A DNA stretch of 63,985 bases, counting the filler, from Octopus bimaculoides (taxonomy: Eukaryota): NCBI RefSeq assembly GCF_001194135.2. It is 5 parts of 5 records of this genome, joined end to end, with 100 filler letters (N's around TTAATTAATTAA, not from the genome) between each part and the next. Parts side by side here need not be neighbours in the genome. Positions count along the whole stretch, not along the records: positions 1 to 17,847 come from NC_069000.1; positions 17,948 to 40,734 come from NC_068992.1; positions 40,835 to 57,830 come from NC_068990.1; 2 more parts are not named here. One strand, 5' to 3'. The notes beneath the pieces were generated by a model. That model had not been told where the DNA came from, did no database searches, and saw only the letters and a list, made by a program, of their open reading frames with translations. The position numbers and the translations under genes were made by a program. The stretch's first letter is position 1, and each line of letters begins with the position of its first letter. Below are positions 12,765-56,255 of the stretch, in pieces.

Positions 12765-13020
12765 GAATTCACCAAAAAAGACGAAGACAGGTGGTGTAGA
12801 CAACAAACAGATATACTAGTTTAACGCTCGGGAAGTGAAAAAGTCTTTAACGTTTAGGGCCTACGCTCTTCCACAGAAACGAACACAGAAAGAAACAATT
12901 AGAGAAAATAAAGAATGTGTAGTGTCTAGCGATCTATCACGACGAATGCCGGACAGAGGGGTCACACAGGAGAGCTAGGAAGAAAGGGAGATAATAAATT
13001 CGTGGTGATCCCAAAATGAA
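12765..13020 (-). mobile_element. Penelope pLTR-like repeat with a degenerate hammerhead motif
   Basis: Minus 12879-12845: UUU CUGUGGA A GAGC-GUAG-GCCC UAA ACGU U AAA; two core substitutions. Confidence 0.45.
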
Positions 13021-13227
13021 GATGCGCGTGCACACACGCACACACACACACACACATATGTATGTATATATATACATACATATATGTGCATAAGCATCTT
13101 ACGCACTTATATGCCGATATATTTATATATTTTTGGAATAAATATACAACACTAGCGTTGCTTCGAGTTCATAATTGAATATACAAACATACACAAACAC
13201 ACGCGCGCATACACACACACGCACATA

Positions 13228-13768
13228 TTAGGGTGTCCAGACAGTAATTGCGTTTTTTCACCACTATGAAATATGATTCAAGGAATTACGTCAGAGCCAT
13301 GGTCGAATGGTCGAGAACTGTCTAGAAATAGTATATCATCTCTCCTCTCCGGCAGTGTGTCATTCGTAGCTATTTCGGTAATCAATGCCATGAAAGATAA
13401 GAACTTTATTAACCAACATATCCGCCATTGCTTACCGTATGAGTTTCGAAAGAAAAGTACACCTACAGTAGCAATGAAAAAAACTTTTGTGAAGTGTATC
13501 CGGATGCAGTGAAGGCCCTACATGTCAGCTGTTGTCTAAAAGGTATAAAGATGACGATTGTGATATATCCGACAAGCCGCGCTCTGGAAGACGTACCACT
13601 TTGAACGACGACCTTTTGAATGAGACTATTGTATTACATCAACATCTAATACAATAGTAGAGATTTCGCGCAAAGATTTAATCTGTCATGTTCAACTATC
13701 CACAAACGTCTGACGGAAATTGGGAAAACATACAAAGAGGGAAATTGGGTTCCACATGAATTTACGCT
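13228..13768 (+). mobile_element. mariner 5' half with left TIR, decayed
   Basis: TA then TTAGGGTGTCCAGACAGTAATTGCG TIR; frameshifted translation HIRHCLPYEF...DKPRSGR...STIHKRLTEIGKTYKEGNWVPHEF (WVPHEL motif). Confidence 0.85.
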
Positions 13769-13774
13769 TGTATT

Positions 13775-13890
13775 TAATTTATCGACTCCTGTAAGAATGA
13801 AATGGGGGAAAAATGACTTCGGCAGCATTCGAACTCAGAACGTAGTGAACCGGAACGAAGGCCCACATGTTAACAATTCAGCCAGCTTGC
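13775..13890 (-). mobile_element. Meta-like SINE fragment
   Basis: tttatcgactcc...gacttcggcagcattcgaactcagaacgta. Confidence 0.6.
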
Positions 13891-14611
13891 TGTCCCAGAG
13901 ATATCCTATTATGAATACCAGTTTATTAACTAGTAGGAGGTGCACAGTAAGCAATTTCGACAAGCAAAACAAAACGATTCAATACACACACACACAACAT
14001 TTCAAAATGGCAAAAGCGAGCGTAAATAAACTAGCGTGGTGCCGGCAGTTTTCTTTATTGTAAAACAATTTTCAAAAGTGTTATTAGTTTGGGCTTTCCG
14101 TTACTCTGGATACAGGTTTATATATATATATATATATNNNNNNNNNNNCATTCGCCAAAAACCAAATCAAAGCTAAAATAAACAAAAGTAAAAAAAAATA
14201 TATATAATATAAAAGCAAAAAAAGGAAGAAAAATGATGACATGAAGAGAAACAACAATTTATCTATCGGCCGGTGGTCTCTTCATATCATATGGCTCAGA
14301 TCTCGTACCTGTTGACAGATGTTTGACTTACCCCGCCCCACAAGAAAGAATATAGAAAGAAGATGAATGAAAAGCAAAAAAAAAAAAAAAAACGAAAAAA
14401 AAAACATTCCAGACAACGAAAATAGTGACAAAATGGCACTGCGTGGTATGAAGATGTCAATAGTTACTACAGGGTCCATAGTGCCCTTGGGAGTCCATTT
14501 AAGATTTTGTTGTTTAAATTTATCTACAATAAATTGGTTATACTTCTGCAATACATAAAATATTTTAACAACTTTTTAATTCAATTTCTAATAATATTTA
14601 ATTATTAAGTA

Positions 14612-14830
14612 GAGCGGCGATCTAGCAAAATCGTTAGCACTCCGGACAAAGTGCTCAGTGGCACACTTAGTCCGTCTACACGTTCGAAGTTAAAATTTTG
14701 CCGAGGTCGACTTTGTCTTTCATCCTTTCGGAGTTGATATAATAAGTGCCAGTTGAGTATTGGGATCGCTGTAATCAACTTAGTCTCTTCTCCAAAATTG
14801 CTAGCCTTTCGTTAAAAATTGAAGCCAATT
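14612..14830 (+). mobile_element. Meta-like SINE
   Basis: gcggcgatctagcaaaatcgttagcac...gaggtcgactttgtctttcatcctttcggagttgat. Confidence 0.8.
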
Positions 14831-14985
14831 TTTAAACTATATTTTAAACTAATTTTTTAAACTATATCTAGTCAATTTTTAAACTATATTTTAAACTAAT
14901 TTTTTAAACTATACCTAGCCAATTTTTAGACTATATTTTAAACTAATTTTTTAAGCTATATTTTAAACTAATTTTAAAACTATAT
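14824..14985. repeat. AT-rich minisatellite, ~47-bp unit built from TTTTAAACTA subunits
   Basis: About three copies of gccaatttttaaactatattttaaactaattttttaaactatatcta. Confidence 0.85.
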
Positions 14986-16447
14986 CAATAGGTTTCGTTT
15001 TAGGATTTGGATTCTTAATGTGAGTTCGTGTGTTGAAGCTAGCTGCAGACTCGTGGTTACATTTAGTAGTGATGACCCGGAATTTGTTCCTCTTCGATTA
15101 CTATCGCAAACAGCAGTAGCTTTCTTCAACCGAATACACGTCGTTGATTGGTTGAAATTACCCAAATAAGACAACTTTAACACGAAATAACTTCTAAAAT
15201 ACGAAATTTGGTCAAAAACGTTCAGAGTAAACCGTGTTCTGCGTGAGAAATTCTACCAGTATTCGAAGTTTCAAACTGTTTAGTTAAAAAAAAATTAATG
15301 AAAAAATCTGTGACTGAGATGGAATAGATCCCAAACAAAACAATAGAAGGGCACATTAAAGAATAGAGTCCTAGACAACACTACTATGACGGGATAGCCA
15401 CGGCTTAAATGTGTTTGATCAAGGCTTGGATGGCTATGTCTTGACCCGTGGTTAAACAACAACACCAATAACACCAACAACGATAACTAACGATTAATCT
15501 ATTGGTGACTTTTCACAATCCATTTTGTGTGAGAGAATGTGTCTTTGTATATATGTTTGAATGTATGTGAGCGTGCGTGCGCGGTGTGTATATATATATG
15601 CGTGTGTGTGTGTGTGTGTGTGTGTGCGTGTGTGTGTGCGTGCACGTGTCTCAGTGTTTACACGTATGACTGAGGAGAGTTTGGTGGTGATTTTTGTTTT
15701 CATAAATTAAGTACAAACCGTTTCTATTTTGCCTGGATGTTTGAAAACAAATTATTTCCACGTCTACTGTAGCACCATCCAGACGTGCTCGGGTGGACTT
15801 GGTGACCTCGTCCATCAGAAAACAGGCGAAAGTGTTAGGCTGACGAACGATGTGTTTTTCTTTTTTTTCTTCTCTTTTAAAGTGGGGAGGAGACAGTGGA
15901 AACAAAANNNNNNNNNNNNNNNNNNNNNNNNNNNNNNNNNNNNNNNNNNNNNNNNNNNNNNNNNNNNNNNNNNNNNNNNNNNNNNNNNNNNNNNNNNNNN
16001 NNNNNNNNNNNNNNNNNNNNNNNNNNNNNNNNNNNNNNNNNNNNNNNNNNNNNNNNNNNNNNNNNNNNNNNNNNNNNNNNNNNNNNNNNNNNNNNNNNNN
16101 NNNNNNNNNNNNNNNNNNNNNNNNNNNNNNNNNNNNNNNNNNNNNNNNNNNNNNNNNNNNNNNNNNNNNNNNNNNNNNNNNNNNNNNNNNNNNNNNNNNN
16201 NNNNNNNNNNNNNNNNNNNNNNNNNNNNNNNNNNNNNNNNNNNNNNNNNNNNNNNNNNNNNNNNNNNNNNNNNNNNNNNNNNNNNNNNNNNNNNNNNNNN
16301 NNNNNNNNNNNNNNNNNNNNNNNNNNNNNNNNNNNNNNTATATATATATATATATTATATAAAAGATCGTGGGTAATGCCAAAACAAAGCGTAGTAAATA
16401 CAAGGTAAATCACAAGAAAACAAATATGTGAATTATTGTAGACATAC

Positions 16448-16579
16448 CTTGTATTCAGTATTTCGGGGTTTTGACCCCATCCTCAAAAATTGACGGATGT
16501 TGCCGATGTGCGTGTGTGTGAGCGTGTGAGCGTCAATTTCTTGAAGATGGGGTCATAACCCCGAAATATTGAATACAAG
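16448..16579. repeat. 132-bp inverted repeat; each arm carries a hammerhead-like variant
   Basis: Arms 16448-16495 and 16531-16579 with about four mismatches plus one indel; plus arm reads UUC UUGAAGA U GGGGU-CAUA-ACCCC GAA AUAU U GAA. Confidence 0.8.
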
Positions 16580-17769
16580 CTAAAGATTTTGCAAAACAAA
16601 TCACCTACGCTAAACTATTGAGAAATATACTCAGTTCAGGTTTATACCTGTAATTATTGTAGCACTGGGATTTTTAACACACGGCCTAGGTACCAAGCGT
16701 GAGAAATTAGGGTCCTCAAAACCAGAAAAGTGAAAGACGATTCGAAGACTACAGATCCAATCCATCACTCGAACTGTAAAACTTTCCAGAAGTTTATTAT
16801 TTAAGTATATATGCGCATATCTAAACATGCAACTATATGCATGACAATACATACATAAAACAAAACACACAAATCTACACATGCACTGACTCCAAATAGT
16901 GCACACATACACACATGCATGTAAAAAATACCTTGCTGATGTTGAGATTCCAATGAAGGAACCTTGGATCTAGGTTAGAAAGTGTCTCTTTCTCTACTGG
17001 CAAGAAATCTTGAAGTAAAACTGAATTATGACATAGTATATATATACTTTCACATACAGTGTACTCACACACACAATGAAATATCAACATGAGTTAAATG
17101 AAAAGACACTAGAAAACAGTTATAATTACATGCTATAATTAGTATGTTTATGTATGTGTGTTTGCGTGTCTGTATGTACGTATGAGAGAGGAGGGAGGAA
17201 AGAAAGATAACGATAACGTGTGATAGGAAAAATATAAGAGAACTGGATAAGTAAATATACCTGCGGATACACAGGCACACCTTTAATTACCAGACACAGA
17301 CGCCTAAATCCTAAATCTGTTTTTGTTTATATACACTAGCTATACTGTTATGAATATTATATACACAACACTTACAAATATTTCGTTCGCAACACATATT
17401 GTATACACAAATATAGTAGTTTTTTGTGAAGCATCTTTTCATTTCAAAATAGCTGGTAATTCTGTTGATGAATATTTTGAAAAACAAAAAAAAAAAAATG
17501 CATTTAGTGGTTTAAATACTGTTGATCTTCGTAAATCTTTCAAAGCCGATAAATCCTGTTTGCGAGTATTTTGAAAAAAAAAAAAACAAAAAAAAAACCC
17601 CCGGAAAAAGTCTTAAAGTTTTTATTAGAAGGAAAAACCGTTTGACCTTCGTAAGTCCTTGAAAATTGATGAAATAGATGGCGCTATATCAATACCCTTG
17701 CTAGTACCTCTCTGCTTACTGGTGAAATGAAGAAAGCAGTAGTCACAACATTTATAGGCCCTCCAAGAC

Positions 17770-17847
17770 TGTTGACTTGTTTACGTCCTCGTAAGTAAGC
17801 GGTTCGGTGAACGAGAATGACAGAATAAGTACCAGACTTATAAAACA
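17770..17847 (+). mobile_element. Family A fragment
   Basis: tgtttacgtcctcgtaagtaagcggttcgg...gacagaataagtaccagactta. Confidence 0.6.
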
Positions 17848-17947: not shown

Positions 17948-18169
17948 ATATATATATATATATTATTTTGTTTAAAAGTGTTCCAACACTGTCTGTTTTT
18001 TTATATTTTATTTATATTCCTGCAAAACCAATGTGGGATATATAATATGGAATATACAATATATAATATAATATGCAATATATAATACAAAATAAAAATA
18101 GATGGTACAATGAAATAAAGTATAGAATGTCTTATTGAATATATGGAATATGTCTTATTGAATATATAA

Positions 18170-18744
18170 TCATAAATATACAGGGATTGGCAAGAGTTGC
18201 TTCTCCAACATACTGAAATTTTAGAAATAGCAGTCAAAGAACTACTGATTCCAAACTACAAATTTTTTTCTCTAACGGATGGCGATATTTATGGCACACA
18301 CAGAACAAAAAAAAACAGAAGAGAAAAGCAAAAACAAACCTGCCTTTAGTTAATAGAGTACGACGTTTCCGATCTTCAGCCCAATATTCGAATAAAGTTG
18401 AAAGTGTCTATATAACTCATGGGAAATTTTGATCATGCGACATCAAAACCACATGAGGAAGGCACTTACGAAATTTATCGGCTAGTGAGTTCAAACACTT
18501 CACTCTAAAGAATCTATTCCATGTGCGCCACAAATAGTCCCGCATAAAAAGTCCCGCATAAAAAGTCCAGTATACAGAGTTACAGTTTAACCATCCAATT
18601 AGAGGCATCAATATAAAATATACAGATATCGCCATCCGTTAGAGAAAAAAATTTGTAGTTTCGAATCAGTAGTTCTTTGACTGCTATTTCTAAAATTTCA
18701 GTATGCTGGAGAAGCAACTCTTGCCAATCCCTGTATATTTATGA
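18170..18744. mobile_element. Non-autonomous element with 108-bp inverted arms and an internal hammerhead-like motif
   Basis: Arms 18181-18288 and 18626-18733 differ at 2 positions; symmetry continues 11 bp outward; hammerhead-like motif on minus 18353-18385; second partial copy at 41696-41921. Confidence 0.85.
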
Positions 18745-18855
18745 ATATAAATGGTTTTACCGATAAAGGTTTTTTCATACTGAACTACTTGGCAACATTG
18801 TTAATTATTAATTTTATTACTAATTGACGATTCTGTGCCCTATATCTGTATACAC

Positions 18856-23726: not shown

Positions 23727-23734
23727 TATATTTC

Positions 23735-23892
23735 AGAGACGAGGAATTATGTGCATTATTTACATTATTTACCTTATTTTTATTTCACGGATATGTGTCC
23801 CCATTTTGTTTGTTATTAACACAACATTTCGGTTGATATACCCTCGAAATTTCGAACCTGGGTTCTAATTTCTAGGGTATTTTTCGATGGTG

Positions 23893-23955
<63 letters not shown>

Positions 23956-24091
23956 ACACTGCCTGGAATAGAACTCAGAAACTTGAGGTTAGTAGCCCAC
24001 GCTCTTAACCACTACCCCACGGGAATATGACGTAGTGGTTAAGAACGTGGGCTACAAACCCCATGATTCCGATTTCGATTCCAGGCAGTGA

Positions 24092-24125
<34 letters not shown>
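23735..24125. mobile_element. Copy of the tRNA-head/(AAT)n/hammerhead family with head-to-head tRNA-like heads; ribozyme core deleted
   Basis: Homologous to 31357-31712; deletion at 23845/23846 removes the CUGAUGA segment; inverted heads at 23950-24015 and 24032-24097. Confidence 0.85.
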
Positions 24126-24407: not shown

Positions 24408-24505
24408 ATAAGAGCACCACAGCAAATCACAGCACATACCCAAGGTGCAAAGAGCTGCGCTCGGTAGTGAAGTGAAAGCACGTTATAAAAATAAAACTAC
24501 TGAAC
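24408..24505 (+). mobile_element. R4/Dong-type LINE 3' UTR end in an (AAT)n tract
   Basis: Nearly identical to 26506-26603; followed by (AAT)n. Confidence 0.8.
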
Positions 24506-24579
<74 letters not shown>

Positions 24580-24589
24580 TAACAAATCA

Positions 24590-26075
24590 GTGTAGGCTAT
24601 AGAAAAGAAAACACGGTTACCAGCAGATATAAATCCGTACCTCCAGAAGAAACTAAATATACTTGAAGAAGAACGTAGTGGTGCATCGGGAAAATGATAC
24701 GCCAGATGTTGAAGTAGCTAAGATATTATGTGCAGAAATCTGGAGTAAGGAACTCCAAAGTAATATGTAGGTAGATAGTGTCACTGATAAGAAAGTGAAA
24801 GGGATAATTAAGAAAAAATGAAACTGGGATTTTCCCGGCCAGTTGGTGTCTGGAATTATGGCTGAAGGCTATTCCTAAATTACATACGAAGAATTTTTAT
24901 TGACTGCATACAAAATGTAACACCTAGATGGATACAAAATTAAGACATAGTTGATATAGAAAGACAAAGAAAAGAGAGTGGAAGTCAGTACTTGTGGATA
25001 TTATTTTTGGCTTACGACTTGTCTGTAATACTTTAACTATTCTCATAGCAGATGAAATATAAGATTTTCTGGGAAACGAGAAACTAGAGGAAGATGAATA
25101 CAAGAAAGGGATCATAGTACCAAACAACTTTGAAGAAAAAGAACAAACCATATATGCCGCAATGCAACTGAATGCCAAACTTAAATTGGAACAAGAATAC
25201 CAATAACAATGATAATACCATGATTAAACAATTTCAAGAAAGTCCCTTTCATGGCAAATACTGGGATAAGCTGAACAGAAAAAAATGAACAAACTAACAT
25301 TCCAAAATGTCTGAAAAGCTCAGGACTCAATGCAGAGATTGAAGGACTTTAAATTACAGCACTATATCGAAAGGATGAAACCCACCAGAAAGGATGAAAT
25401 CATAATGAAGAAATAACTACAGAATATGTGGTGAAGGGAAAGAAGCAATAAATCATATTGTCACTAGATTTACAGTTTTCGTTGAGGAAGACTTTTCCAA
25501 AAGACATGAAACAGTTGGGACCTATATACACTGGAAGCTATGCCAAGACTATGGAGTGACAACAGAAAAAAGTTGGTATAGGCATATACCAGAAAAATCA
25601 CAGAATATAAAAAACCAATCATGCTCTGGCAATATACACATGTAGAGAGATCTACGCTAATAGACCGCATATAGTACTCAGCAATCATCAAAAGACAATT
25701 GTTATCTAGCATTCCAACAGATAATAATATAACTCTGAAAGGAACGGAGTAACTCACAAAATGCAAAGCTACAGAAACTGAGATAACCCGAATATGTAAA
25801 GTAAAAACTGAAACAAAGCCTATAATAATAGTTACAGTCGGTATGATTAAAAAACAACATCTTGAAATTACATAAAGAAGAGACCAGAGCTTAGGAAAAT
25901 ACATATATATTATACGGAAAAAAACATTACTAGGTACTGCACAAATCCTACGTAAATCACATCCAACACAGTACGAAAAAAAAACGCCAAAACAAAGCGC
26001 TCTACAAACCAAGGCACACAGAGCTACGCTCTGAAGTGCAGTGATTGCACGTCAATAAAACGAAGGCTACTGAAC
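24590..26075 (+). mobile_element. Older, decayed R4/Dong-type LINE (RT to endonuclease remnants and 3' end)
   Basis: Remnants such as ETEITRICKVKTETKPIIIV.VG and KTLLGTAQILRK; ends ...ggctactgaac followed by (AAC)n/(AAT)n. Confidence 0.65.
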
Positions 26076-26085
26076 AACAACAACG

Positions 26086-26135
<50 letters not shown>

Positions 26136-26160: not shown

Positions 26161-26603
26161 ATGCCAATACACACAGATAGAGAAATTAAGGGAAATAGAC
26201 CAGATATAGTTGTCAAAGATCATGAAGTAAAAAAATGCTTTCTAATTGATGTATCAATACCAGCAGATGACAACGTTTCTCTAAAAGAAATGGAAAAACT
26301 TTCAAAATACAAAGACCTGGAAATAGAGATAACTCGAATGTGGAATCTAAAAACAGAAACAATTCCTATCATAGTAGGTGCCTTAGGTATAATAAAAAAA
26401 TATTCAGACAAATACATAACAAAAACACCAGGACTTACAAATATATATAACATACAGAAAATTGCACTACTGGGTACTGCACAAAACACTTTCAATACAG
26501 TAAACATAAGAGCACCACAGCAAACCACAGCACATACCGAAGGCGCACAGAGCTGTGCTCGGTAGTGAAGTGAAAGCACGTTATAAAAATAAAACTACTG
26601 AAC
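26161..26603 (+). mobile_element. 5'-truncated R4/Dong-type LINE: restriction-like endonuclease domain plus 3' UTR
   Basis: NRPDIVVKDHEVKKCFLIDVSIP...EKLSKYKDL...PIIVGALG (PD..D..K motif); flanked by (AAT)n on both sides. Confidence 0.9.
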
Positions 26604-26632
<29 letters not shown>

Positions 26633-28475: not shown

Positions 28476-30164
28476 ACAATGTTAGTATAGCTGTTATTTT
28501 GGGGTGGTTTTTGACCATTTTTGCTCAAAGCAACTTTCTCACTTGTTCGTTTCTGCTTCTTATCCGTTTCTTCATGTTGGTAACCGTTTGCCATTTAGTC
28601 TACAAACCGTCCCCTTCAATATAGGGCATGTCTGAGTGGTTCTTCTGAGAGCTGCTGATACTGTTGTTGTTGTTGGTGGTGGTGGTGGTAGAGGTGGTAG
28701 AGCTGCTGCTACGAATGCTTTATTAATTGCTGTTGCTGCTATTTTCACATTTTTAACTCCTGGTGCTGGTGATGTTGTAACCACCTGCGTCTGTCAGATC
28801 CGTTGCTGTTGTCTTTCAGTTGTTGTTGTAGGAGTACCGGTTGTGTTTGGAAGAGTGTTAGTTTTCTTTGCTGTGTGCAAAGGGCGTCGAGGTGACGTGT
28901 GTCCTTGCACAGAATATATCACAACCTTCTGCCCTCAACAGCCATGAGAAGCTTTTTGCCATGTGACAGGAGTATGAAGTCCGGGATAGCATCGGTGATT
29001 TTCTGGTCCGTCTGTATTAACTACTGCATACTCTGTCCTAACAAAATTTGCTTCTGTATTCTTTGTATCTATAGACAACTGTTTATTTTTAGTCTATTTG
29101 AAAGAGAACCGCTGCCACCAACCTGAAAATGTTAATTTCTGGTGCTATATTTTATATTCTTATTTTGAACACCCCCGGCCAAGATAAATGGGGATGAAAA
29201 TGAGTTTGAGCCTCGTTAGGGTAGTTGATTTTTAGCCTCAACTCTGACGCGAATCTCACTTAAACTGTTCCAAATCACCCAGACCCATTTTTAAATTTGC
29301 TGTTCCAAATTTATAGCAGCCATTTCCTTTATCGGCCGGTGCGTTGCTGGAGTATTCCTTTAACTTTTGCTCTGATTGTTTTGTAATGAACTGTCCACAA
29401 CTTAGTTTCTTCCTGAACAAATATAGAAACGCTCTGTACCACATTTCGCCCACATTTCTTCAGCATACATTTTGTACGTTTGAATTTATTTTCGTTTATA
29501 AAATTATCTTTGTTTCTATGCTGCATTGTGTCCACAAAACCATTGACAGCAGATTCGCATGAACTAGTTTCCTTGTTCCTTTTTCTTTTCGTTAATGATG
29601 TTGCTGATGGTGGGTTTGCTGTTGTCACTGGTGTTGGTGGACGTGGTGATGTCCCCTATTGGGTTATTGATTTCTGCGTTAGTCTTGTGGAGCTGATAAA
29701 AGCATCGGAAAATTACTTTCATGCATTTCACGTGCAGTGTTGTTGTTGCCGTAACTGTTGCTATCATTACTTCTCCTGCTGCTGCTGTTAATGATATGTG
29801 AAAATTGACTTTATTATTCTGAGGATAAGTGACTGTTCTATACAGCGAGCGAACAATCCACGTCACCTTTTCTCAGTTTTAAACAAGCCCCCAATGTAGT
29901 CCCTAACGGCTACAAATGGATAAATATTTATAAGCTCCCTAAGGTTCTGGTTAGTGTACTTATATAATGATAGCAAAAGTTCAATATGTAACTGACTATC
30001 AATGTAAATAACGATAGATTTACAGGAATGTGGAGCAATACATGTGGATAGTTGAACAAGAAGAAGACTATGAACAACAATATCAATAATGCATTCTACT
30101 ATAGGCCTGTAGGCACAAGTCTAAATTTAGGGGAAGGGGATAGTCGATTACATCGAGTGCAATA

Positions 30165-30292
30165 CACACCTGGTACTTATTTTATCGACCCCGAAAGGAT
30201 GAAAAGCGAAGTCGACCTCGGCGGAATTTGGACAGATAGGATAATGCCAAGCATTTAGCTCGGCGTGTTAATGCTTCTTCCAGCTGCCGCCA
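30165..30292 (-). mobile_element. Meta-like SINE
   Basis: ggtacttattttatcgaccccgaaaggatgaaaagcgaagtcgacctcggcggaatttg. Confidence 0.8.
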
Positions 30293-30514
30293 TAACAATA
30301 ATAATTATCATAATAATGATATATGCTTGCAGTACACGGGGAAATACGAAATCCTATTTTATAGTAGATTGTGAATCATAAAATTTTCTTGTTGGTAATA
30401 ATTATAATGTAAATTCATTCATAATACTTCAAACAAATGTAATTCTTGATTGTTTAAAAGCACTGCTTTAATTTAATCAATTAGTATAATATAGTTTCCT
30501 ATTATGAGACTTGA

Positions 30515-30563: not shown

Positions 30564-31356
30564 ACGTGATATCTGAAATATCTTTTTTGAATTCTTGTTT
30601 ACAATAAACCATTACGTTAAAAAATATAAAATATAAAACTACTTCGAAAATAATTTACATGGACTATGTTATATGCTTAGACGTGATACACAGTATGAAT
30701 TTTGTAAAGCAAAATTTTCCGAAGGAATTAAAATTGTTAATGATGATATTGATTCATGACACCTTAGTGCATTAGGGCTCATCTAACTCGGGTATACGGA
30801 CCTCAAATGAAGACACTTTTACAATAAAACTAATTCAATTCGAAACCAGTTCTGCTCAATATATCGGTGAACAAATCGACGATGACATTTGATGTGAAAT
30901 AAGATGATTGAAATCAGGAGGAATGCCCAACACATTCAAGATAATCAAAATACGCAATTGCTTTTAAGAAAATATTGCAAGTAATAATTATTGCAGATTA
31001 ATGTATAACCGTCCATTCTCGACATTTTTATTGCACTGGTGTCTACCGAATTATAAAATTGTAAAGGATGACGGGCTAAAACTATACAATCAGGACATTA
31101 CGAGTAAAATTTAATTATGGACACCCGGAAAATAAGTTATAGGTATGTCATAAGCACGAAATAAATAACTAAGAGCTCGTTTACGTCACACAGCATCTCA
31201 GTTTTTAGTACAATCTAATAAAGTACCCCTCTCCATCTCTCTCTCGCTGCTCACTCGATCTCAGCCAACTCTCTGCATCCACTATTATCCACAACAAGAT
31301 CACCACCGATGAACCAAAATTTTCTTTTGTACTGTTTGTGTTATAATGCAGTTCCA

Positions 31357-31555
31357 TATTTAAGAGATGAGGAATTATGTACATTATTTAAATTTGACGG
31401 ATATTTGTCCTCATCTTGTTTGTTGTTAACACAACTTTTCGGCTAATATGCCCTCCAGCCTTCATCAGGTGTTTTGGGGAAATTTCGAACTTGGTTTCTC
31501 ATTCCTAAGGTATTTTTCGACGTTGTGGTTGTTGTTGTTGTTGTTGTTGTTATTA

Positions 31556-31637
<82 letters not shown>

Positions 31638-31846
31638 TTACCGCCTGGAATTGAACTCGGAATGTTGGGGTTAGTAGCCCGCGCCTCTAACCACTACGCC
31701 ATCTGCCCGTGGTTCGAAGATTTTCTCCAGACACCTGATGAAGGCCAGAGGGTATATCTGCTGAAACGTTGTGTTAACAACATACAAGATGAAGACAAAT
31801 ATCCGTCAAATGTAAATAAGGTAAATAATGTTTGTGTTATTTCCTC
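31357..31846 (-). mobile_element. tRNA-headed, (AAT)n-containing element with hammerhead motifs in inverted terminal arms
   Basis: Minus strand: A box TGGCGTAGTGG (31701-31691), B box GTTCAATTC (31656-31648), (AAT)n, hammerhead 31472-31429; inverted arm 31712-31846 carries a plus-strand hammerhead. Confidence 0.85.
31731..31774 (+). ncRNA. Minimal type-I hammerhead ribozyme motif
   Basis: ACAC CUGAUGA A GG(C)CAGA..UCUGCU GAA ACGU U GUGU: stem I ACAC/GUGU, intact core, palindromic ACGU stem III, predicted cleavage after U31770. Confidence 0.7.
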
Positions 31847-41685: not shown

Positions 41686-41695
41686 ATGTAAACAT

Positions 41696-41921
41696 ATAGG
41701 GATCAGCAGGAGTTGCTTCACCAACATACTGAAAATTTAGAAATAGCAGTTAAAAAACTACTAATTCTAACTACAATTTTTTCTCCAACGCATGGCGATA
41801 TTTATGACCCACAATTAACAAAACGGAAGAGAAAATAAACGAAAACAAACTTGCCGTTAGTTAATCATGTACGACGTTTCGTGATTAGAATATAATAATT
41901 CGTTCCATTCATCAGCATGAT
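41696..41921 (-). mobile_element. Partial copy of the 18170-18744 family, including a well-formed hammerhead
   Basis: ggagttgcttcaccaacatactgaaaatttagaaatagcag matches the 18.2-kb arm; hammerhead at 41864-41921. Confidence 0.85.
41864..41921 (-). ncRNA. Type-I hammerhead ribozyme motif (GUA cleavage triplet)
   Basis: AUCAUG CUGAUGA [AUGG..GAAU-UAUUAU-AUUC..UCAC] GAA ACGUCGU A CAUGAU; 6-bp stem I, intact core, A-C mismatch at 10.1/11.1. Confidence 0.7.
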
Positions 41922-42959
41922 ATCCAAAATTATAAATTTGAAAATGCTAGTCGATAAATATGTAGATGCTGATTTTTTTCTTATGTGATATTTAATGTCG
42001 CATGGTCAGATATGCATGAGTTTATTAGCAAGTAATTAGATTACTTGAAATTAATGTGATGTTTCTTGTCAAAAAACGAGCACCTATTTTTTAATTTTTA
42101 AGTTTTACGAGGTAAGATGTGCGATATGCATTTATTTTACAGAAACATTTAAGGAGAATGAATTTGCTTGTTTGCAGCCAAAGTAATCAGAAATTTGTCA
42201 CGGCAGATATCAAGAACACTACTTTATTCTCTCAAAACAAAAATAAAACAGTGAGTAATTCTGAGATTCAACAAAGCATCGAGAAAGCTTCAGTTTTGTT
42301 GCTCGACCGTCATGGTCAGCTTTTACTTAATTCTTGTTGAATGAACACACGCATACTGAGACCACTTCATATTCTGCGCATAAAGAAATTCTGGTGGAAC
42401 ATTGTTTGATATCAGAGAGAACAGAAATCATATACACTGGATAGCTTAATTTGCGAATAATTTACTCAAATATATATATGAACAGGGAATATTTATAAGC
42501 AACTCTTTCGAAAACTGCTCATTTTTACATTTATATTTTACCTATTATCAGTTCACCTCACTGAATGTGCAAATCACTAAATGTTTAAGTAACAGTCTTT
42601 GAATGTACAACGTTTACAAAGAAAGAAAAGCAAATACCAGAAATCGTATTTGAAATCATCATCTGTTGTCCTTAGGGGTAATTGTCGTTGGAGGGTTATT
42701 GTCCATGGTGGGGGTGGGAAAAATTTTTATTTGCAGAGAGCAGAAATTGAAAGATATATAAAATAGACGTGCATGTGTGTGTGTGTGTGTGTGTACGTGA
42801 GAGAGAAAGAGGGTGAGAAAGAAAGATAGAGTGAATGAGTGAAGTTGTGGGTCATTGACTTACGTTGGCTGGCACGGCAAGTACAAAGCTTTTGAAGTGG
42901 CAGATGACTGGATGATTTGGAAGATGTGAAGAAATGCCGTCTTTTCAGTGGAGCGCTTC

Positions 42960-43288
42960 TTTGTCGACAAGGTTTCTCGTTTTCCCTTCTGATGCACAAA
43001 TATATAGACTTGTGGCCTGCCAACACGAGAGCATCCAACGTAATGTTGACTGTGGGAGAACACTTCCTCTGTGAGATTTAAACCAACCATTTGCAGTGAT
43101 TGACCCTGTGCCTTATTTATTGCCATTGCAAATGAGAGTTTGACAGGAAATTGAAGCCGCTTAAATTTGTAGATCGTATCGGAGGTAGGGAGGGACATTG
43201 GAGTAGTAAGAACATCTTGACCAGCGGCCGGTCCATTCAAGATGGTTGCTTTCAAAACTCGGGAGTATAAATTTTGATTATCATGCAC
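42960..43288 (-). pseudogene. Helitron RepHel Pif1-like helicase C-terminal fragment
   Basis: LKATILNGPAAGQDV...FKRLQFPVKLSFAMAINKAQGQSLQMVGLNLTEEVFSHSQHYVGCSRVG (motifs V and VI, with substitutions). Confidence 0.9.
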
Positions 43289-43346
43289 GTGCCGTTACAC
43301 ATTATTGGAGCATCCTAATTCCGCAGCAGCATGATGTGCGCCCCTC

Positions 43347-43582
43347 CTCAGAACTTTGCAGGAAGTAATTCCTCCCCTCCGGAACTTTCCAGGAAGTAAT
43401 TCCTCCACTTCCTCCCCCTACTCGGACCTTTCCAGAAAGTAATTCCTCCTCCCTCGGAACGTTTCCAGGGAATAGTTCCTCCCCCTTCTCGGAACTTTCC
43501 AGGAAGTAATCTCATCCCCTTTCTTCCCTTCCCTTGGAACTTTTCAGGAAATAATTCGCCACCCCACCCCTCGGAACTCTCC
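43347..43582. repeat. ~31-bp minisatellite (GGAACTTTCCAGGAAGTAATTCCTCCCCTCC)
   Basis: About seven degenerate units. Confidence 0.9.
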
Positions 43583-43589
43583 ATGATAT

Positions 43590-43850
43590 ATATGTAAAAT
43601 TACAAAAATGGGACAAGAACGCAAAGCATCCAGGCAGTTAGATGATACAAAAAACGGACAACAAAACATCCAGACAGACGGTATAAAGAAAACAAGGATG
43701 GTCATTCAGAGTTTTCTTTCCTCAGTCGAGTTCCAGATTATCTTTGCAATTTCGGCTGATTATACTCAAGATTGCTCTAATCTGGCCAGCCCCAAGGAAA
43801 AACTAAGCTAAGAGCACTAGATTCCTTGGAAGAAAGCAACGAATGTATAC
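43590..43850. mobile_element. Repeat family P copy
   Basis: Matches 62665-62915. Confidence 0.85.
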
Positions 43851-44357
43851 GAAAGGGTGGCACTTGGAATGGAGCCCAATGGCACATCCTGAGGGTGGAA
43901 CATCCTGGAAAGTTCCGAGGGTGGCACTCCCTGGAAATTTCCGAGGGTGGCACTTTATGCGGAGCCCCATGGCACATCGTAAGGATGGCACATCGTAAGG
44001 ATGGCACATCCTGGAAAGTTCATAAGGTGGCACTTCCTGGAAAGTTCCGAGGGTAGCACTTTATGGGGATCCCCATGACACATCTTAAGTGTGCCACATC
44101 CTGGAAAGTTCCGAGTGTGGCACTTCCTGGAAAGTTCCGAGGATGGCACTTCATGGGGAGCCCCATGGCACATCCTGGAAAAGGTGGCACTTCAGTTGGC
44201 ACTTCAGGTGGCACTTTAGGTGGCACTTTAGGTCGCACATAGTGGTAAGTTCCTAAGGTGGCACTCCCTGGAAAGTTCCGAGGGTGGAACATCCTCGAAA
44301 GTTCCGAGGGTGGCACATCCTGGAAAGTTCCGAGAGTGGCACTTTGTGGGTAGCCCC
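43851..44357. repeat. ~26-bp minisatellite (CCTGGAAAGTTCCGAGGGTGGCACTT) with interspersed GGAGCCCCATGGCACAT units
   Basis: Direct reading; inverted relative to, and homologous with, 43347-43582. Confidence 0.9.
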
Positions 44358-44754
44358 AAAAACTAAGTGAAAAAATATGGAATAAGTAATTGTTATACTC
44401 TTATAGGAAAACAATTTATATTATAGAATATATACATACCTGTTGAAGACGAAAATGTATGTGAGAGCTATTGTACTGGACGTGTGTATAATTATAGAGC
44501 AAGTGAAAGAAATATGAAATGGACGTGTGTGGGTGTATTTGGCAGGAGTTTTGCAGAAAGAAAGAGAGAAAGATAACTGAAATTTTCCATTCAGTTTTTG
44601 TAGTGATTGAATGTGTGAGTGATTGACAGAGAAAAACTGAGAGAGAGAGATAGAGAGAGTAATTATGTATGTATTTTATGTATGCATGTATGTATGTATG
44701 TATGTATGTATGTATGAATGGCTTCAGTGACACACTCACATACATGTATGCACG

Positions 44755-46246: not shown

Positions 46247-47218
46247 TGTAACATATATTTGCCAACTAAGCCTGGTGCCCTATACAGGACTGTGTTACTG
46301 ATGTTTATAGCCCCAGGAAGACATCTCCAGCTGGCTAACGACGCACATTATGTGTTCGATTAGTATTTGCGAGGGTAGGTCATCGCTCGCATCTCTACCC
46401 TTACAAGATACACACGGACTCGAGTTTCTGGGTAGTTACCCGTCTTCAACGAGTGTTAATCACCAGCTAGTGATGGAAGCTCATTCCACTCGCAAATTAC
46501 TGTATATTTTTCTAGCAACTCACTGTTGCTCATCTCGTAGAAGGGAGAGAATGTTATATTAAATCCCTGAGCGATATCTAAACAGTAGCAGTATGGAACC
46601 GTAATATACATTTGCCAACTAAGCGTGGTGTCCTATACAGGAGAATGTTGCTACTGTTTATATCTCGCTCGGAGATTTAATATAACATTCTCTCCCTTCT
46701 ACGAGATCAGCGACAGTGAGTTGCTAGAAAAATATACAGTAATTTGCGAGTGGAATGAGCTTCCATCACTAGCTGGTGATTAACACACGGTGAGGACAGG
46801 TAACCTCCCTAAACTCGAGTCCGTGTGCATCACGTAAGGCTAGAGATGGGAGCGATGACCTCTCCTCGCAAATACTAATCGGACACCGAATATGTTATTT
46901 CTTTATTGTCCACAAGGGGCTAAACATACAGGGGACAACCAAGGACAGGCAAAGGGATTAAGTCGATTACATCGACTCCAGTGCGTAACTGGTACTTAAT
47001 TTATCGTCCTCGAAAGGATAAAAGACAAAATCGACTTCGGCGGAATTTGAACTCAGAACGTAACGGCAGACGAAATACCGCTAAACACTTCGCCCGGCGT
47101 CCTAACGTTTCTGCCAGCTCGCCTCGGACACAGAATGTGTGTCGTTAGCCAGCTGGAGGAGATGTCTTCCTGGAGCTGTAAACATCAGTAGCACTGTCCT
47201 GTATATGTTACGATTCCG
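46245..47218. repeat. Large palindromic element with a central direct repeat of its own 5' end
   Basis: Left arm ~46280-46590 vs right arm ~46650-47200 (interrupted by a SINE); 46245-46310 is repeated at 46598-46662. Confidence 0.9.
46896..47123 (-). mobile_element. Meta-like SINE with 17-bp TSD
   Basis: TSD tcggacaccgaatatgt (46879-46895) and tcggacacagaatgtgt (47124-47140). Confidence 0.9.
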
Positions 47219-48364: not shown

Positions 48365-49214
48365 CGAAGGATACCCAAAAGTAACCAGAAACGTTCTTTG
48401 TGAGACAAACCCGCTGTACTTCAGATTTTCGCCGCTAGAAGCCTCTTGATGCAAACGTCAGGAATCAGAATGCCGACCGGTGGCGTCTGATGAGGTTGTA
48501 TTGCTATGCAGTACGTCTTTGTTTTCCGATGCTTCCTCGTTGATTTTTGCGATGGCTAAAACGGCGGAACAGCGTACATCCGAGAAATTCTGCTTTTTGC
48601 TCGGGAAAACAACGACTGAAACAGTTGTAAAGCTTCAAACAGCTTACAAGGACTCTGTCATGAGCAAAACACGAGTCTACGAGAGGCTTTTATTCTTTAG
48701 GAATGGCCACTTGCTACTTGAAGACCAACCTCACTTAAGACGACCGTCGAACTCCCGAACGAATGGAAACACCATGAAAGTTCGCGAAGTTGTTGAGATG
48801 GCTGGCGTGTTCTGGAGCTCTTGCCAACGAATTCTGAGCGAGGAATTTGCGTACGAAAAGAGTTGCAGCAAAATCTGTACCTCACGGAAGATCAAAAGCC
48901 GTCACGACTGAATGCGTGTCGTGATCTGAAAGGGCAGTTCGAAATTGATGTGGACTTTTTTTCGAAGGTCATCTCTGGTGACGAAAGCTGGTACTACGGA
49001 ATTTTATGATGTGGACGAGGCGGAGAAAAGTACCAACGAAGGCGTTCAAAGGCATTATTTCGCAAGCGCTCCAGTACTGCTTCAAGCAATTGAAAACACA
49101 TCTGGACGGATGCAATGTTTCAAATGGAGGATACTTTGAAAACGATAAAAGTGCAAACATGTAAACTAAGTGTATAAAATATTGTTGCAAAGTTCTGCTT
49201 TCTTTTGGCTACCC

Positions 49215-51529: not shown

Positions 51530-51735
51530 TTATATTGGTTTCAAATTTCGGCACAAGCGCAACAGAGTGGTAAGTCGATTACATTGACCTCAGTGCTTAA
51601 CTGGTACCTATTTTGTCGACCCTTAGAGAATGAATGTCAAAATCGTCGTAATTTGAACTCAGAACATAAAGGCGGATGAGATGCCGCTATGTATTTTGCC
51701 CAGCGTGCTAACGATTCTCCCAACTCGCCGCCTTA
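51530..51735 (-). mobile_element. Meta-like SINE
   Basis: gtcgattacattgacctcagtgcttaactggtacc...gctaacgattctcccaactcgccgcc. Confidence 0.8.
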
Positions 51736-52479
51736 TAGTTTAATATCAGTATGCCAATAGTAAATGAATTATTGTCAATTTTGTTACAGATGATTTCACA
51801 TATATATATTATTTGATGGTCTGTTAAATTTCCAAAGATATGTAGAGTCTCAAATGGTTATCCCCGAGCCATTTTGTTACGCAACTGAAATACGTTGGTC
51901 CTGTGTCTGCACATAAATCTTGCCACGTTATTGTGCCGCTCAACATATTTTACCTGATTTAGTGTTAAAATGTGGTACCTTGTTTCAGAAAATACATCAG
52001 AAAAAAGTATTATTTGTTATTAGTATACTAGACTTGTTGATATTCATTCAATATATCTCAAGGTAGTTGCTTGTTCTTATGTCGTGAATGATTTTGTTGT
52101 GCCGTTCAGGTAGGATTGGTTTATTTAGACAAGAGATATATATTTTATATAATGGGCTTCCAGTTTACATACGTATTAGCCGTGTAAACGCATGATTTTA
52201 TGGTTGTTAACGATATAGTTCCCTCCTTGTTTCTGATGCATTAGGTTTAGTTTTTACATTTCGAATTCCAAGTAGAATTTTCTTGTTGCGGTATACAATA
52301 GACTTGCTACATATTTTTACGGTAATAATTAACAGCAACATATCATTTACGTTCGCATAGTTTTCAAGCACTCAATGTTTAACTCTCGTATCGCTGAAAG
52401 TATCCCTGCAACACTTTACTTACCTCCTGTATTAACTCGTGCACTTAAGTGTTTCGAGTCAACAGCTCGCCCCGCACCT

Positions 52480-52980: not shown

Positions 52981-53669
52981 CCAAACCGATGAAGCTGATG
53001 GCATTAACGATCCGTTTGTCCACAGCTGCAAGGGGAAAAAACATGTATGGAAGAGAAGCAGAATATATGTCATATATAGGAAAATATTTTGGTATTATTT
53101 ATTCACCATTACATGTTTCATTTGCTAAAAGCAGTTACAAAATTCTACATTTAAGCTAAACATGTAAGAAATTTCCTATTAGAAATTCTTCAGGTAGAGA
53201 ATCAATTAATAATGTATTATTTGATGCTCTTTCTGGAGAATTTCCATTTAGAGATATCTTATATGTTTTCTACATGTGCAGTTTTGTAACTTCTATTAGC
53301 AAATGAAACACATGTGATGGTGAATACTAAAATCTTTTCCGATCTCCTGTTTTGATATTATCCCCCAAAAATAGTTTCCAGTATTTTCAACTCTTATGCA
53401 TATCTCATTCAAACATAACATCTACAGACGCATTTGGGATGGTGAAATAAGCAAATGTGCTTTAAGAGGACACAACTAGGATTTTAATCCCATCGACATA
53501 ATATGTATGTAGGGGTAGAAAGGGAGAGAGGAGGGATGAAAGGTTTGTGTGTCAAAGAGAAGCATATGTGGTTTGTGTGATCACGATCATGATCACAATC
53601 CTCATCACCACCATCATGACTCATCAACATAATCTCATTCATTATGAGTGTAAGAACAGACGTGGAGGT

Positions 53670-53970
53670 ACGTTGCTTAGTGATTGGGGTATAACACTCA
53701 TGATCATTACATTGTTGCTTCAATTCCTGGCCCGGGCAATGCGTTATGTCTTGAGCAAAACACATCATTTCACGTTGCTTCAGTTCACTCGGCTGGCAAA
53801 AATGAGTGACAGACCGGTGTCCCATCCAGTGGGGAATATTTTACGCCAAAGAACACTGGAAATCAGCCTTGTGGGCTTTGATTACCCCACCGCCTTGTTT
53901 TTTGTTTTGTGTGCGCAAACAATGAATAAAGTACTCATTACGGTTAAGAAGCATTTGCACCCTTGAATAG
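53670..53970 (+). mobile_element. V-like SINE
   Basis: gcttcaattcctgg...atgtcttgagcaaaacacatcatttcacgttgcttcagttcactcggctggcaaaaatgagt. Confidence 0.7.
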
Positions 53971-54255
53971 CTATCACTTTTTCCACACACACACACACAC
54001 ACACACGCACACGGATACACACAAACGTATAAACAGACACAGACGCTCTCACTGTCTTTTATGTACACACACATATGCAGTTACATTTTTGATAAGTATG
54101 ATGTGCCATGAATCACATCATACACATCAAAAATGTAACGACAGACGAAATACCGCTAAGTTTTGGGGTCGATTTGTTCGACTAAAGGCGGTGCTCCAGC
54201 TTGGCCGCAGTCAAATGATTGAGACAAATAAAAGAATAAAAGAATAAAAGAATGT

Positions 54256-54287
<32 letters not shown>

Positions 54288-54556
54288 GTTCTTTTATTCG
54301 TTTCAGCCACCTGACTGCGGCCATGCTGAAGCAGCGCCTTTAGTTGAAGANNNNNNNNNNNNNNNNNNNNNNNNNNNNNNNNNNNNNNNNNNNNNNNNNN
54401 NNNNNNNNNNNNNNNNNNNNNNNNNNNNNNNNNNNNNNNNNNNNNNNNNNNNNNNNNNNNNNNNNNNNNNNNNNNNNNNNNNNNNNNNNNNNNNNNNNNN
54501 NNNNNNNNNNNNNNNNNNNNNNNNNNNNNNNNNNNNNNNNNNNNNNNNNNNNNNNN

Positions 54557-54715
54557 TATACGACGAGCTTCTTTTAGTCTCCGTCTACCAAATCCACTCA
54601 CAAAGCTTTGGTCGGCCCGTGACTATAGTAGAAGACACTTCCCCAAGGTGCCACGCAGTGGACTGAACCGGAAACCGTGTGGTTGGGAAGCAAGCTTCTT
54701 ACCAGACAACCACGC
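54557..54715 (-). mobile_element. CORE-like SINE
   Basis: ctatagtagaagacacttccccaaggtgccacgcagtggactgaaccggaaaccgtgtggttggg. Confidence 0.85.
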
Positions 54716-56209
54716 ATACATATATATATATTTACCAACACTCTAGCACCAGCAAAACACTACCACCCTCACAAACATTGTGCAACACCACAACGCCACA
54801 TCTCTGAGCTGCATCACCAAATCATTTTGCACAATTACAATGTCCTAATTTTAAAACATTCTGATTATTCCAGCAGATTGTCGAAGAATGAATCCCAAAA
54901 TATCTGTCAGAAAGGAAAAATAATAAAATAAAATAAAATGAATGAATATAATAAATAAAAATAAGTCTTCGTTCTTTTTGGCTAATTGTATTTCAAAATG
55001 GAATAACTGCTGAAATAGTTAAAGTGGTAAAAATGGTATAATAGCAAAAATGATGGCGGCGATCATTCTTAGATAACAGTTTTATGCATAAAAAAATGGA
55101 AGAAAAAATGTCTGAATCTGAAAGACACTAAGTACTACAAAAGCATAATATGTATTTAGGAACGCAGAAACCTCCAGGTGGTCTGATAGCTTTTAGTCAA
55201 GTCTGCATTTTATTTCTTGCAGAATGTATCCACAATGGAATCGGCAATGGCAAACGCATTGTGAATGTGAATAATATAGGGTTTGGTGGGTGACTATTGG
55301 AATGTGTAAACACCAATAACAGCAAGTAAAAGCAGTAATAACAGCAACGGCAGCAGCAGAAGCAATAGTAACAGCAGCGGTAATAACATCCATAAAATTG
55401 AGAAGAAAAGGAAGACGAATGTTTACAGGAAAAAAAAAAGAGAGAAAAGAAATAGCTAAATAAATGAAAGATGTGTCTGATAGAAAAGAAGTCAGAATCT
55501 GATGGCTTGCCCTAAAAGAAAAAAAAAGGAAAACTAAATAGAGAAAGAAAGAATGAATACAAAATATAGTAAATAAACAAATATATTTTAGAACGCTGTG
55601 TGCTGTATAGAGAGAATAGTATGAATCAGTTCAGAACCAAGAATTAGACTTAGTAGGGATTTCTGTTGGAAAATTTACACCTCTACTTTGAGGTTGATCT
55701 TTCTAGACAGCGAGTGTTTCAACGCCATCGGTTTGTAGCTCATTTATCACGACAGCTTTACCATAATGAATGACTTTTTTAACCTGTGCTAGAATAGAAT
55801 ATAATAATACTACATACAAGTGTTGTATAGGACGTGTATGTATGTTTGTATGTATGTATGTTTGTATATAAGTATTTATGTATGACTGTGTCTTTCTTTA
55901 TGAATTCATTTGTATATGCAGTTGAGTTTAGAGAGTTTATCCCACGAGGTGAGTGAGTATGTATCTGTATTAAAATCATGTAGGCTGTGCAGAAAGTACT
56001 TACTCTATGAGGTGTATGAGTATGTATGGATGATCATTTATGTAGTTCGTGCAATTATGTATTATGTTCGTATGGTTGTGCATGTAAGCAAATGCTTATA
56101 TATATACTAGAGTAAGTACATTAATGCGAAATAAGATTGAAAATAATAGCACTCGAATAGCAGTGGTAGAGTAATATGCTTTATTAAAAAGCAGCAAAAA
56201 TATCGCAAA

Positions 56210-56255
56210 AAAACTGTTACTCAATGTTTCACGTTCCCGTTCGTCGGACAGTTTT
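56210..56255 (-). ncRNA. Type-I hammerhead-like motif with one core substitution (U4C)
   Basis: AAAACUGU CCGACGA ACG-GGAA-CGU GAA AC-AUUGA-GU A ACAGUUUU; 8-bp stem I and GNRA-capped stem II. Confidence 0.65.

What the first reader, a model, noticed from the sequence alone, without database searches (positions are those of the whole stretch)
12765..56255. Five apparently unrelated repeat families each carry a type-I hammerhead-like motif within 45 kb
Seen: motifs at 12845-12879(-), 16538-16573(+) with an inverted partner, 18353-18385(-) and 41864-41921(-), 31429-31472(-) and 31731-31774(+), and 56210-56255(-). Flanks differ between families, but all show stem I, a (C/U)UGANGA-like core, stem II, GAAA and a very short stem III. 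Three families have inverted arms. Known: Penelope-like elements carry minimal hammerheads in pseudo-LTRs, often with inverted ends. Inference: a diverse, high-copy population of non-autonomous Penelope-dependent ribozyme elements, probably mislabelled as MITEs or unknown repeats. No Penelope RT or GIY-YIG ORF is recognisable in this window.
Basis: partly seen in the sequence, partly recalled or inferred. Interest (0 to 1): 0.75.

Follow-up and report, generated by a model that had tools for sequence, protein, structure and literature searches.

The report
Penelope retroelement ends, one tRNA-headed
The hammerhead-like motifs are real, but four of the five repeats are cut-down end pieces of protein-coding Penelope-type jumping genes, a layout known from many animals; the unusual part is one very common element whose end repeat begins with a tRNA-like sequence that likely acts as its promoter.

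Summary
The motifs are real minimal type-I hammerheads, each in a genome-wide repeat family (F1-F5). 'Within 45 kb' is a packing artefact: they lie on three chromosomes. The non-autonomous reading fails for four families. F1, F2, F4 and F5 are 5'-truncated 3' ends (pLTR, optional tail, inverted 5' copy) of RT + GIY-YIG Penelope-like elements (PLEs) that I found in the same genome. Only F3 is a non-coding 545-570 nt head-to-tail unit (retrozyme-like), with compensatory stem changes between subfamilies. Only 2 of the 7 cited motifs keep their family's full fold. The unusual family is F4 (4,909 exact hits of one 24-mer). About 30 nt after the stop codon of a Poseidon-type ORF sits a tRNA-derived head with A and B boxes, then (AAT)n, an ATG, the hammerhead and the tail. 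Of 24 head-bearing arms picked without regard to the head, 23 stop at the tRNA 5' end. This fits a Pol III start, or fold-back at a native hairpin. Neither is tested. The scan noted the same layouts before: e1-8669850 (another genome) and e1-8829949 (this genome). Cleavage and Pol III transcription are untested.

The parts
12761..13031 (-). F1: 5'-truncated 3' end of a Neptune-like PLE. Family hammerhead has an A6U core and an AACGTT stem III palindrome. The window copy (12845-12879) has lost G12.
   Evidence: GIY-YIG ORF about 500 nt upstream in L146/L384
16354..16512 (-). F2 long arm (pLTR plus tail) of a Penelope/Poseidon-type PLE; its hammerhead (about 16445-16490) is decayed.
   Evidence: RT + GIY-YIG ORF directly upstream in 11 of 17 loci
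16531..16583 (+). F2 inverted short arm with the hammerhead at 16538-16573. The family core shows the U3-A8 covariation.
18162..18630 (-). F3b retrozyme-like unit, partial; hammerhead at 18353-18385 with stem II deleted.
18626..18851 (+). F3b inverted arm with tail.
23727..24125 (.).
31349..31708 (-). F4 full unit: tRNA-like head 31633-31708, (AAT)n, body with ATG and hammerhead (31429-31472, C15.2 changed), tail.
31711..31831 (+). F4 inverted 5'-truncated arm without tail; hammerhead 31731-31774 matches the family fold.
41689..42030 (-). F3a retrozyme-like unit, partial; hammerhead 41864-41921 with G10.1 changed.
56109..56493 (-). F5: 3' end of a Nematis-like PLE with long 3' UTR and tail; hammerhead 56210-56255 has the family's U4C core and an 8-bp stem I.

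Best explanation
Four of the five repeats are truncated 3' ends of protein-coding Penelope-like retroelements that keep the hammerhead motif of the end repeat, and the fifth is a non-coding tandem unit that likely borrows the same enzymes. Shown: fixed 3' ends, ragged 5' ends, optional tails, inverted 5' copies, and RT + GIY-YIG ORFs directly upstream for F1, F2, F4 and F5. Inferred from the Poseidon_Ac experiments: the element's protein nicks AT-rich DNA and starts reverse transcription inside the RNA at one of two sites (tail or no tail). Copying mostly stops early, often with fold-back, and leaves dead stubs. The minimal hammerheads would cut only as dimers or with protein help. In F4 the end repeat begins with a tRNA-derived A/B-box head about 30 nt after the stop codon. 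A frame that opens at an ATG behind the (AAT)n run stays open through hammerhead and tail. My preferred mechanism (about 0.5) is that RNA polymerase III starts at this head. Reverse transcription from the internal start site to the RNA's 5' end would then give the common 300-nt SINE-like copies as run-off products.
For: Family anatomy. ORF linkage. Published anatomy and mechanism: PMC8557442 (passages), PMC11167929 (parts 1-2), PMC4209133 (parts 1-2). All five majority folds have a self-complementary stem III. F2 shows U3-A8, as described for Cercyon. F3 covariation: 92% of cells paired, 6 of 12 pairs changed on both sides, versus 24-46% paired when slid. F4 head: aligns colinearly with the window's tRNA-Gly gene, z 6.4 against 200 shuffles. 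5' ends: 1 of 24 arms in sets not picked for the head (2 more at gaps set aside) and 6 of 37 arms in the full-length set carry the native upstream sequence; the rest begin at head positions 1-9. Seven of 30 full-length copies begin at -2 or -3 with no fold-back. A whole unit sits inside an unrelated Neptune-like ORF whose sister copies lack it. No run of four or more T on the sense strand in 1,834 nt of majority sequence or in 885 nt of one N-terminal copy.
Against: No cleavage or transcription was tested. The lack of T runs is not significant once codon use is kept: P 0.16 for the C-terminal part and 0.34 for the N-terminal part; the P of 0.016 came from a cruder shuffle. ARAGORN (0 of 6 loci) and Rfam do not recognise the head as a tRNA, and only one real tRNA was available for comparison. 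A native hairpin spans the head's 5' end and could explain many of the stops. No copy joining the tail to the ORF's N-terminus was found, so the ATG frame is not shown to be the RT frame. RNA reads of a related species showed no places where many molecules begin or end. F1 (A6U) and F5 (U4C) carry fixed core changes at positions where changes lowered activity in PMC3088659 (passages). No coding partner was found for F3. Clade labels rest on motifs; no tree was built.
Confidence: 0.85

Rival explanations
1. The F4 head is a passenger: an old tRNA-SINE with an (AAT)n tail that inserted into the end repeat of a master PLE. Copies stop at it because a native hairpin across its 5' end makes the cDNA fold back and prime itself. 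Transcription is by Pol II, as in Penelope.
For: The native sequence just upstream of the head is an imperfect inverted copy of the head's first 10 nt. Of the 61 head arms scored, 26 have an inverted head sequence immediately upstream. Codon-aware T-run tests are not significant.
Against: 28 of 61 arms begin at the head with other sequence upstream (this class includes arms followed by an inverted body). Seven full-length copies start at -2 or -3 without the hairpin's 5' half. The A and B boxes are intact with tRNA-like spacing. No free-standing head + (AAT)n family turned up in the loci held.
Confidence: 0.35
2. One reading: all five are non-autonomous ribozyme elements (retrozymes or SINEs) that replicate through their own short RNAs.
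For: F3 fits. F4's 300-nt unit inserts as a whole. Most copies of every family lack an ORF.
Against: F1, F2, F4 and F5 continue upstream into PLE ORFs. F1 and F5 have ragged 5' ends. In Poseidon_Ac the template needs sequence downstream of the RT start site (PMC11167929), which solo stubs lack.
Confidence: 0.12
3. The motifs are chance matches in AT-rich repeat DNA.
For: The loosest descriptor gave 2 hits against 1.24 per shuffle. Rfam listed no hammerhead. Five of the 7 cited copies are decayed.
Against: Family majorities fold fully, stems covary between F3 subfamilies, the motif sits at the same place relative to PLE ORFs, and the stricter scan gave 3 hits against at most 0.01 per shuffle.
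Confidence: 0.02

Closest known systems
[quoted passage not shown]
   Same: Short stem I, extra base between positions 9 and 10.1, palindromic 15.2-16.2, U3-A8 core variant, mostly single truncated copies, pairs on opposite strands 100-700 bp apart, several unrelated families per genome.
   Different: The parts read do not mention this animal group or a tRNA-derived head. F1 (A6U) and F5 (U4C) have fixed core changes not described in those parts.
[quoted passage not shown] 2021, PMC8557442, passages; Poseidon_Ac, PMC11167929, parts 1-2 of 4)
   Same: RT followed by C-terminal GIY-YIG, 5' truncation, inverted 5' copy, optional tail, microsatellite targets; in F4 a reading frame that opens at or near the hammerhead, as in Poseidon_Ac.
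   Different: The pLTR promoters described there overlap an intron in the 5' UTR (Penelope, Chlamys). F4's pLTR starts with a tRNA-derived A/B-box head, and its copies pile up at that head. The F5 tail is about 70 nt.
Metazoan non-LTR retrozymes (PMC7229834, passages; bioRxiv 10.64898/2026.07.22.740005, part 1 of 5 plus passages)
   Same: F3: non-coding, head-to-tail unit, type-I hammerhead with 6-bp stem I and GUA site, covarying stems.
   Different: F3's unit is 545-570 nt against 220-400 nt in those papers; it is mostly partial dimers with inverted arms. Circles and cleavage are not shown.
Sm-alpha/Sj-alpha SINE-like elements of schistosomes (PMC6765202, passages) and TRIMp3 (Cassandra, Helenus, Ajax; PMC10886601, passages)
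   Same: A small-RNA-derived Pol III promoter inside a retroelement repeat; in Sm-alpha together with a hammerhead.
   Different: Those are non-coding. F4's head belongs to the end repeat of a protein-coding element. PMC10886601 argues that autonomous partners must use Pol II.

Membership tests
EN+ Penelope-like element (F1, F2, F4, F5) | RT plus C-terminal GIY-YIG in one ORF directly upstream of the end repeat | tested here: met
   F2: (RVT_1 E 4e-5, below the curated cut-off). F4. F5: (RVT_1 E 0.004). F1: GIY-YIG and thumb region similar to Neptune-like ORFs at about 1e-19; RT core not seen. All copies are broken. Pfam GIY-YIG did not score these endonucleases; they were read by motif.
EN+ Penelope-like element (F1, F2, F4, F5) | Fixed 3' end, 5' truncation, inverted 5' copy, optional tail | tested here: met
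   inverted arms are common in F2 and F4 and rarer in F1 and F5 (output partly cut)
EN+ Penelope-like element (F1, F2, F4, F5) | Partial tandem with an upstream pLTR running into the ORF | tested here: inconclusive
   No full pLTR-ORF-pLTR copy was recovered; assembly gaps interrupt the longest loci
PLE clade (Poseidon, Neptune, Nematis) | RT phylogeny; Zn-finger linker present or absent | tested here: inconclusive
   Linker absent in the F2 and F4 partners, degenerate in F1, reduced in F5, read against PMC8557442 passages plus recalled motifs; no tree
Minimal type-I hammerhead | Core, stems I and II, palindromic stem III, NUH site | tested here: met
   Majority folds; copies with the full fold: F1 9, F2 11, F3 10, F4 23, F5 6 of 30 each; variant cores in F1 and F5
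Minimal type-I hammerhead | Self-cleavage | not testable with these tools
   needs in vitro assay
Non-LTR retrozyme (F3) | Non-coding head-to-tail unit with one hammerhead per unit | tested here: met
   Direct repeats at 538-550 nt in 5 of 30 F3a loci and at about 530-570 nt in 8 of 20 F3b loci; longest stop-free frame 67 codons
Non-LTR retrozyme (F3) | Expressed, self-cleaved circular RNA | not tested
   no reads were laid on F3
tRNA-derived SINE (F4) | tRNA-derived head with A and B boxes at the 5' end | tested here: met
   not recognised by ARAGORN or Rfam
tRNA-derived SINE (F4) | Head absent from the autonomous partner; target-site duplications | tested here: not met
   The head follows the ORF in 25 of 30 endonuclease loci; no duplication at the one empty-site comparison
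tRNA-derived SINE (F4) | Pol III transcription | not testable with these tools
   one search was uninformative

The most novel reading that the evidence does not exclude
F4 is a protein-coding Poseidon-type retroelement driven by a captured tRNA promoter. RNA polymerase III reads its whole terminator-free ORF, and internal reverse transcription back to the Pol III start mass-produces SINE-like 300-nt copies, so one element acts as both LINE and SINE.
Probability: 0.22. Interest if true: 0.75.

Novelty: new variant of a known kind. Interest (0 to 1): 0.42.

Why it matters
Most of the finding is expected biology: PLE ends carry minimal hammerheads and litter many animal genomes. Here they number roughly tens of thousands of loci (11 loci in 0.53 Mb). 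F4 matters more. How PLEs are transcribed is known for few elements, and autonomous retroelements are generally taken to use Pol II. If a tRNA promoter drives F4, it shows a direct route by which a SINE-like element arises from a PLE end. It would also give a marked 5' end and a marked RT start within 300 nt, which makes PLE priming and run-off easy to test in vitro. The fixed A6U and U4C cores offer natural tests of whether PLE hammerheads need to cut at all.

Tried and rejected
Rfam on the window showed no hammerhead among the 150 rows listed; on one F4 unit it gave only three weak unrelated hits. ARAGORN found no tRNA in 6 F4 loci. Pfam PF26215 is not in the library. The Pfam GIY-YIG search (149 matches) returned mostly Neptune-like families; none of the 70 loci examined from it and from low-ranked RT hits had F3, F4 or F5 as its own 3' end. 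My first reading of F4 as a separate non-autonomous SINE was dropped. T-run depletion looked significant with a mononucleotide shuffle but not with codon-aware shuffles. Sequencing runs: no RNA holder listed. Three raw RNA runs of organism C gave 7,125-10,588 reads each on the F4 end, about equal in both directions and with no start or end pile-ups; this says nothing on the polymerase. A physical cluster was rejected because the window is a pack. A diverged F3 relative upstream of a Neptune-like ORF in L249 is not that element's own end, since a different sequence follows its ORF. Lunse et al. (PMC5785218) is not held and was not read. Paper searches that found no PLE with a tRNA-derived promoter: (listings and abstract starts only; Repbase entries, subscription papers and supplements were not seen and could hold such a family). 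No family tree was built.
Full report
Setting. The window is a pack of five stretches from a 2.34-Gb, microsatellite-rich animal genome. Earlier scan notes call it an octopus; I did not test that. The cited motifs lie on three chromosomes: C20, C12 and C10. The 45-kb cluster is therefore not real.

Observation. All seven motifs are present. Each retrieves a dispersed family. First-look candidates were F1 1,982, F2 592, F3a 270, F3b 1,205, F4 1,754 and F5 2,307, of which 40 were scored and 30 cut out per search, except F3b. These loci are the best matches, not a random draw. One exact 24-mer of F4 occurs 4,909 times, against 0 for the reversed control. Sixty evenly placed 10-kb stretches (530,852 nt without N) held 11 loci: F1 5, F2 0, F3 2, F4 2, F5 2. 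Majority sequences of 30 copies each give complete minimal type-I folds. F1 has a 4-bp stem I, a CUGUGGA core and an AACGTT palindrome. F2 has a U3-A8 core and AATATT. F3 has a 6-bp stem I and a GUA site. F4 has a canonical core, a 5-bp stem II and AACGTT. F5 has an 8-bp stem I, a CCGACGA core and a near-palindromic stem III. The full fold survives in 6-23 of 30 copies per family and in 2 of the 7 cited motifs. Descriptor scans give 3 window hits against at most 0.01 per shuffle; a looser scan did not separate from chance. For F3 I extracted 37 hammerheads from 52 loci and aligned 25 of them, dropping near-duplicates and rows with a shifted register. In that alignment 92% of cells pair and 6 of 12 pairs change on both sides, against 24-46% paired when slid. 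The changes are subfamily-wide, so they represent few events.

What the families are. F2: locus L090 has an RT frame and a GIY-YIG-type frame directly before the F2 end, and an inverted F2 copy at its 5' side. A search with that RT gave 150 matches; 11 of the 17 cut-out loci of the same family carry the F2 end about 1 kb downstream. F1: copies run back through a C-rich UTR into a GIY-YIG frame (L146/L384) similar to Neptune-like ORFs. F5: walking upstream reached RT and endonuclease frames of Nematis type 1-2 kb before the hammerhead in L371, L372, L374 and L377. F4: 5 of 30 full-length copies share upstream sequence, and one shows a Poseidon-type endonuclease. A search with that endonuclease gave 4,882 candidates; 29 of 30 cut-out loci run on into the F4 head or body, and several show the RT motifs further up. 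I went looking for this ORF after reading note e1-8669850. Clade names rest on the linker rule in PMC8557442 (passages) and on recalled motifs. F3 differs: its upstream sequence is its own downstream sequence, with a period of 538-550 nt in 5 of 30 F3a loci and about 530-570 nt in 8 of 20 F3b loci. It has no frame over 67 codons, and no coding partner was found among the loci held.

F4 in detail. The order is: ORF stop, about 30 nt, tRNA-like head of 76 nt, (AAT)n, body with ATG, hammerhead, short repeats, optional 33-nt tail. The head has A- and B-box matches (consensus recalled) 33 nt apart. It aligns colinearly with the window's tRNA-Gly gene (z 6.4) but lacks an acceptor stem and is missed by ARAGORN and Rfam. 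The frame from the ATG stays open to the end of the tail in the majority sequence, recalling Poseidon_Ac, whose ORF starts in the hammerhead. Its junction with the RT frame was not recovered. Of 63 arms with the head's first part, 2 lie at gaps, 7 continue into the native upstream sequence, 26 into an inverted head and 28 into other sequence; all start at head positions 1-9. In the sets not chosen for the head the native share is 1 of 24. About four further arms are cut within the head. Seven full-length copies begin at -2 or -3 with no fold-back. The sense strand has no run of four T in 1,834 nt of majority sequence, whereas five other PLE families have 1-10. With codon use kept, P is 0.16 and 0.34 for the two parts, so this is compatible with Pol III but is no evidence for it. 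RNA reads of a related species were equal in both directions and showed no starts or ends.

Mechanism. Shown: anatomy, ORF linkage, 5'-end pile-up, covariation in F3. Inferred from PMC11167929 (parts 1-2): nicking of AT-rich DNA, internal start of reverse transcription at two sites that define the tail, and a protein-assisted hammerhead that is dispensable for insertion in vitro. Inferred from PMC4209133 (parts 1-2): weak dimeric cleavage. Position 6 and U4C changes lowered activity in PMC3088659 (passages), so F1 and F5 may cut poorly. For F4 I favour a Pol III start at the head with run-off cDNA (about 0.5) over fold-back at the native hairpin (about 0.35); both may act. Whether Pol III reads the whole ORF is a further, less likely step, since such an RNA would be uncapped (own knowledge).

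Novelty. PLE stubs with minimal hammerheads and retrozyme-like tandem units are published kinds. Penelope-like families are listed for Octopus vulgaris in PMC13282606, where 'hammerhead' does not occur (passages). A coding PLE whose end repeat starts with a tRNA-derived promoter did not appear in five paper searches (listings only); Repbase, subscription journals and supplements were not seen. The scan itself reported this layout in another genome (e1-8669850) and plain PLE ends in this one (e1-8829949). Verdict: observation partly confirmed, interpretation partly supported, new variant of a known kind, interest 0.42.

Noticed in passing
window 24408-24535, 25627-26104, 26162-26632: 3' fragments of a non-LTR element with a restriction-like endonuclease frame, sitting in (AAT)n runs. 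R4/Dong-like by recalled motif; no Pfam hit. The same end also lies inside the (AAT)n of several F4 copies (L013, L023, L028).
   Followed up: partly
window 1817-1888 (+): tRNA-Gly(CCC) gene, Rfam 57 bits.
   Followed up: partly
window 46344-46894 and 46281-47205: 550-nt fold-back repeat (85% self-complementary) with a copy of a common SINE-like repeat inserted beside it; no hammerhead hit.
   Followed up: no
window 53100-53326, 38781-39100, 62884-62949, 54080-54139: Further palindromic repeats without hammerhead hits.
   Followed up: no
window 6812-7585, 14614-14808, 30107-30294, 46959-47123, 51571-51743, 58772-58993: Many copies of one SINE-like family, partly dimeric.
   Followed up: no
window 42860-43294 (-), 48450-48911 (+), 13650-14063 (+), 57931-58330 (-): Fragments of a helicase (Helitron-like, recalled), mariner transposases (HTH_48 E 8e-4 for 48450) and an RT.
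   Followed up: no
window 43369-44358; 59354-59530: Tandem arrays of 26-106 nt and of 66 nt periods.
   Followed up: no
L152, L158, L159, L165, L169, L170, L178, L196, L197, L249, L261: More PLE families with other minimal hammerheads downstream of their ORFs or alone, several with the U3-A8 core.
   Followed up: partly
L163 1960-2256 versus L164 and L175: A whole F4 unit inserted into a Neptune-like ORF with no target duplication and about 8 extra bases at its 3' side.
   Followed up: yes
L387 1100-1990 laid with runs X21-X23; F4 words are held by runs labelled as six different organisms (A-F), so the family is shared among related species (only organisms A and C were laid).
   Followed up: partly
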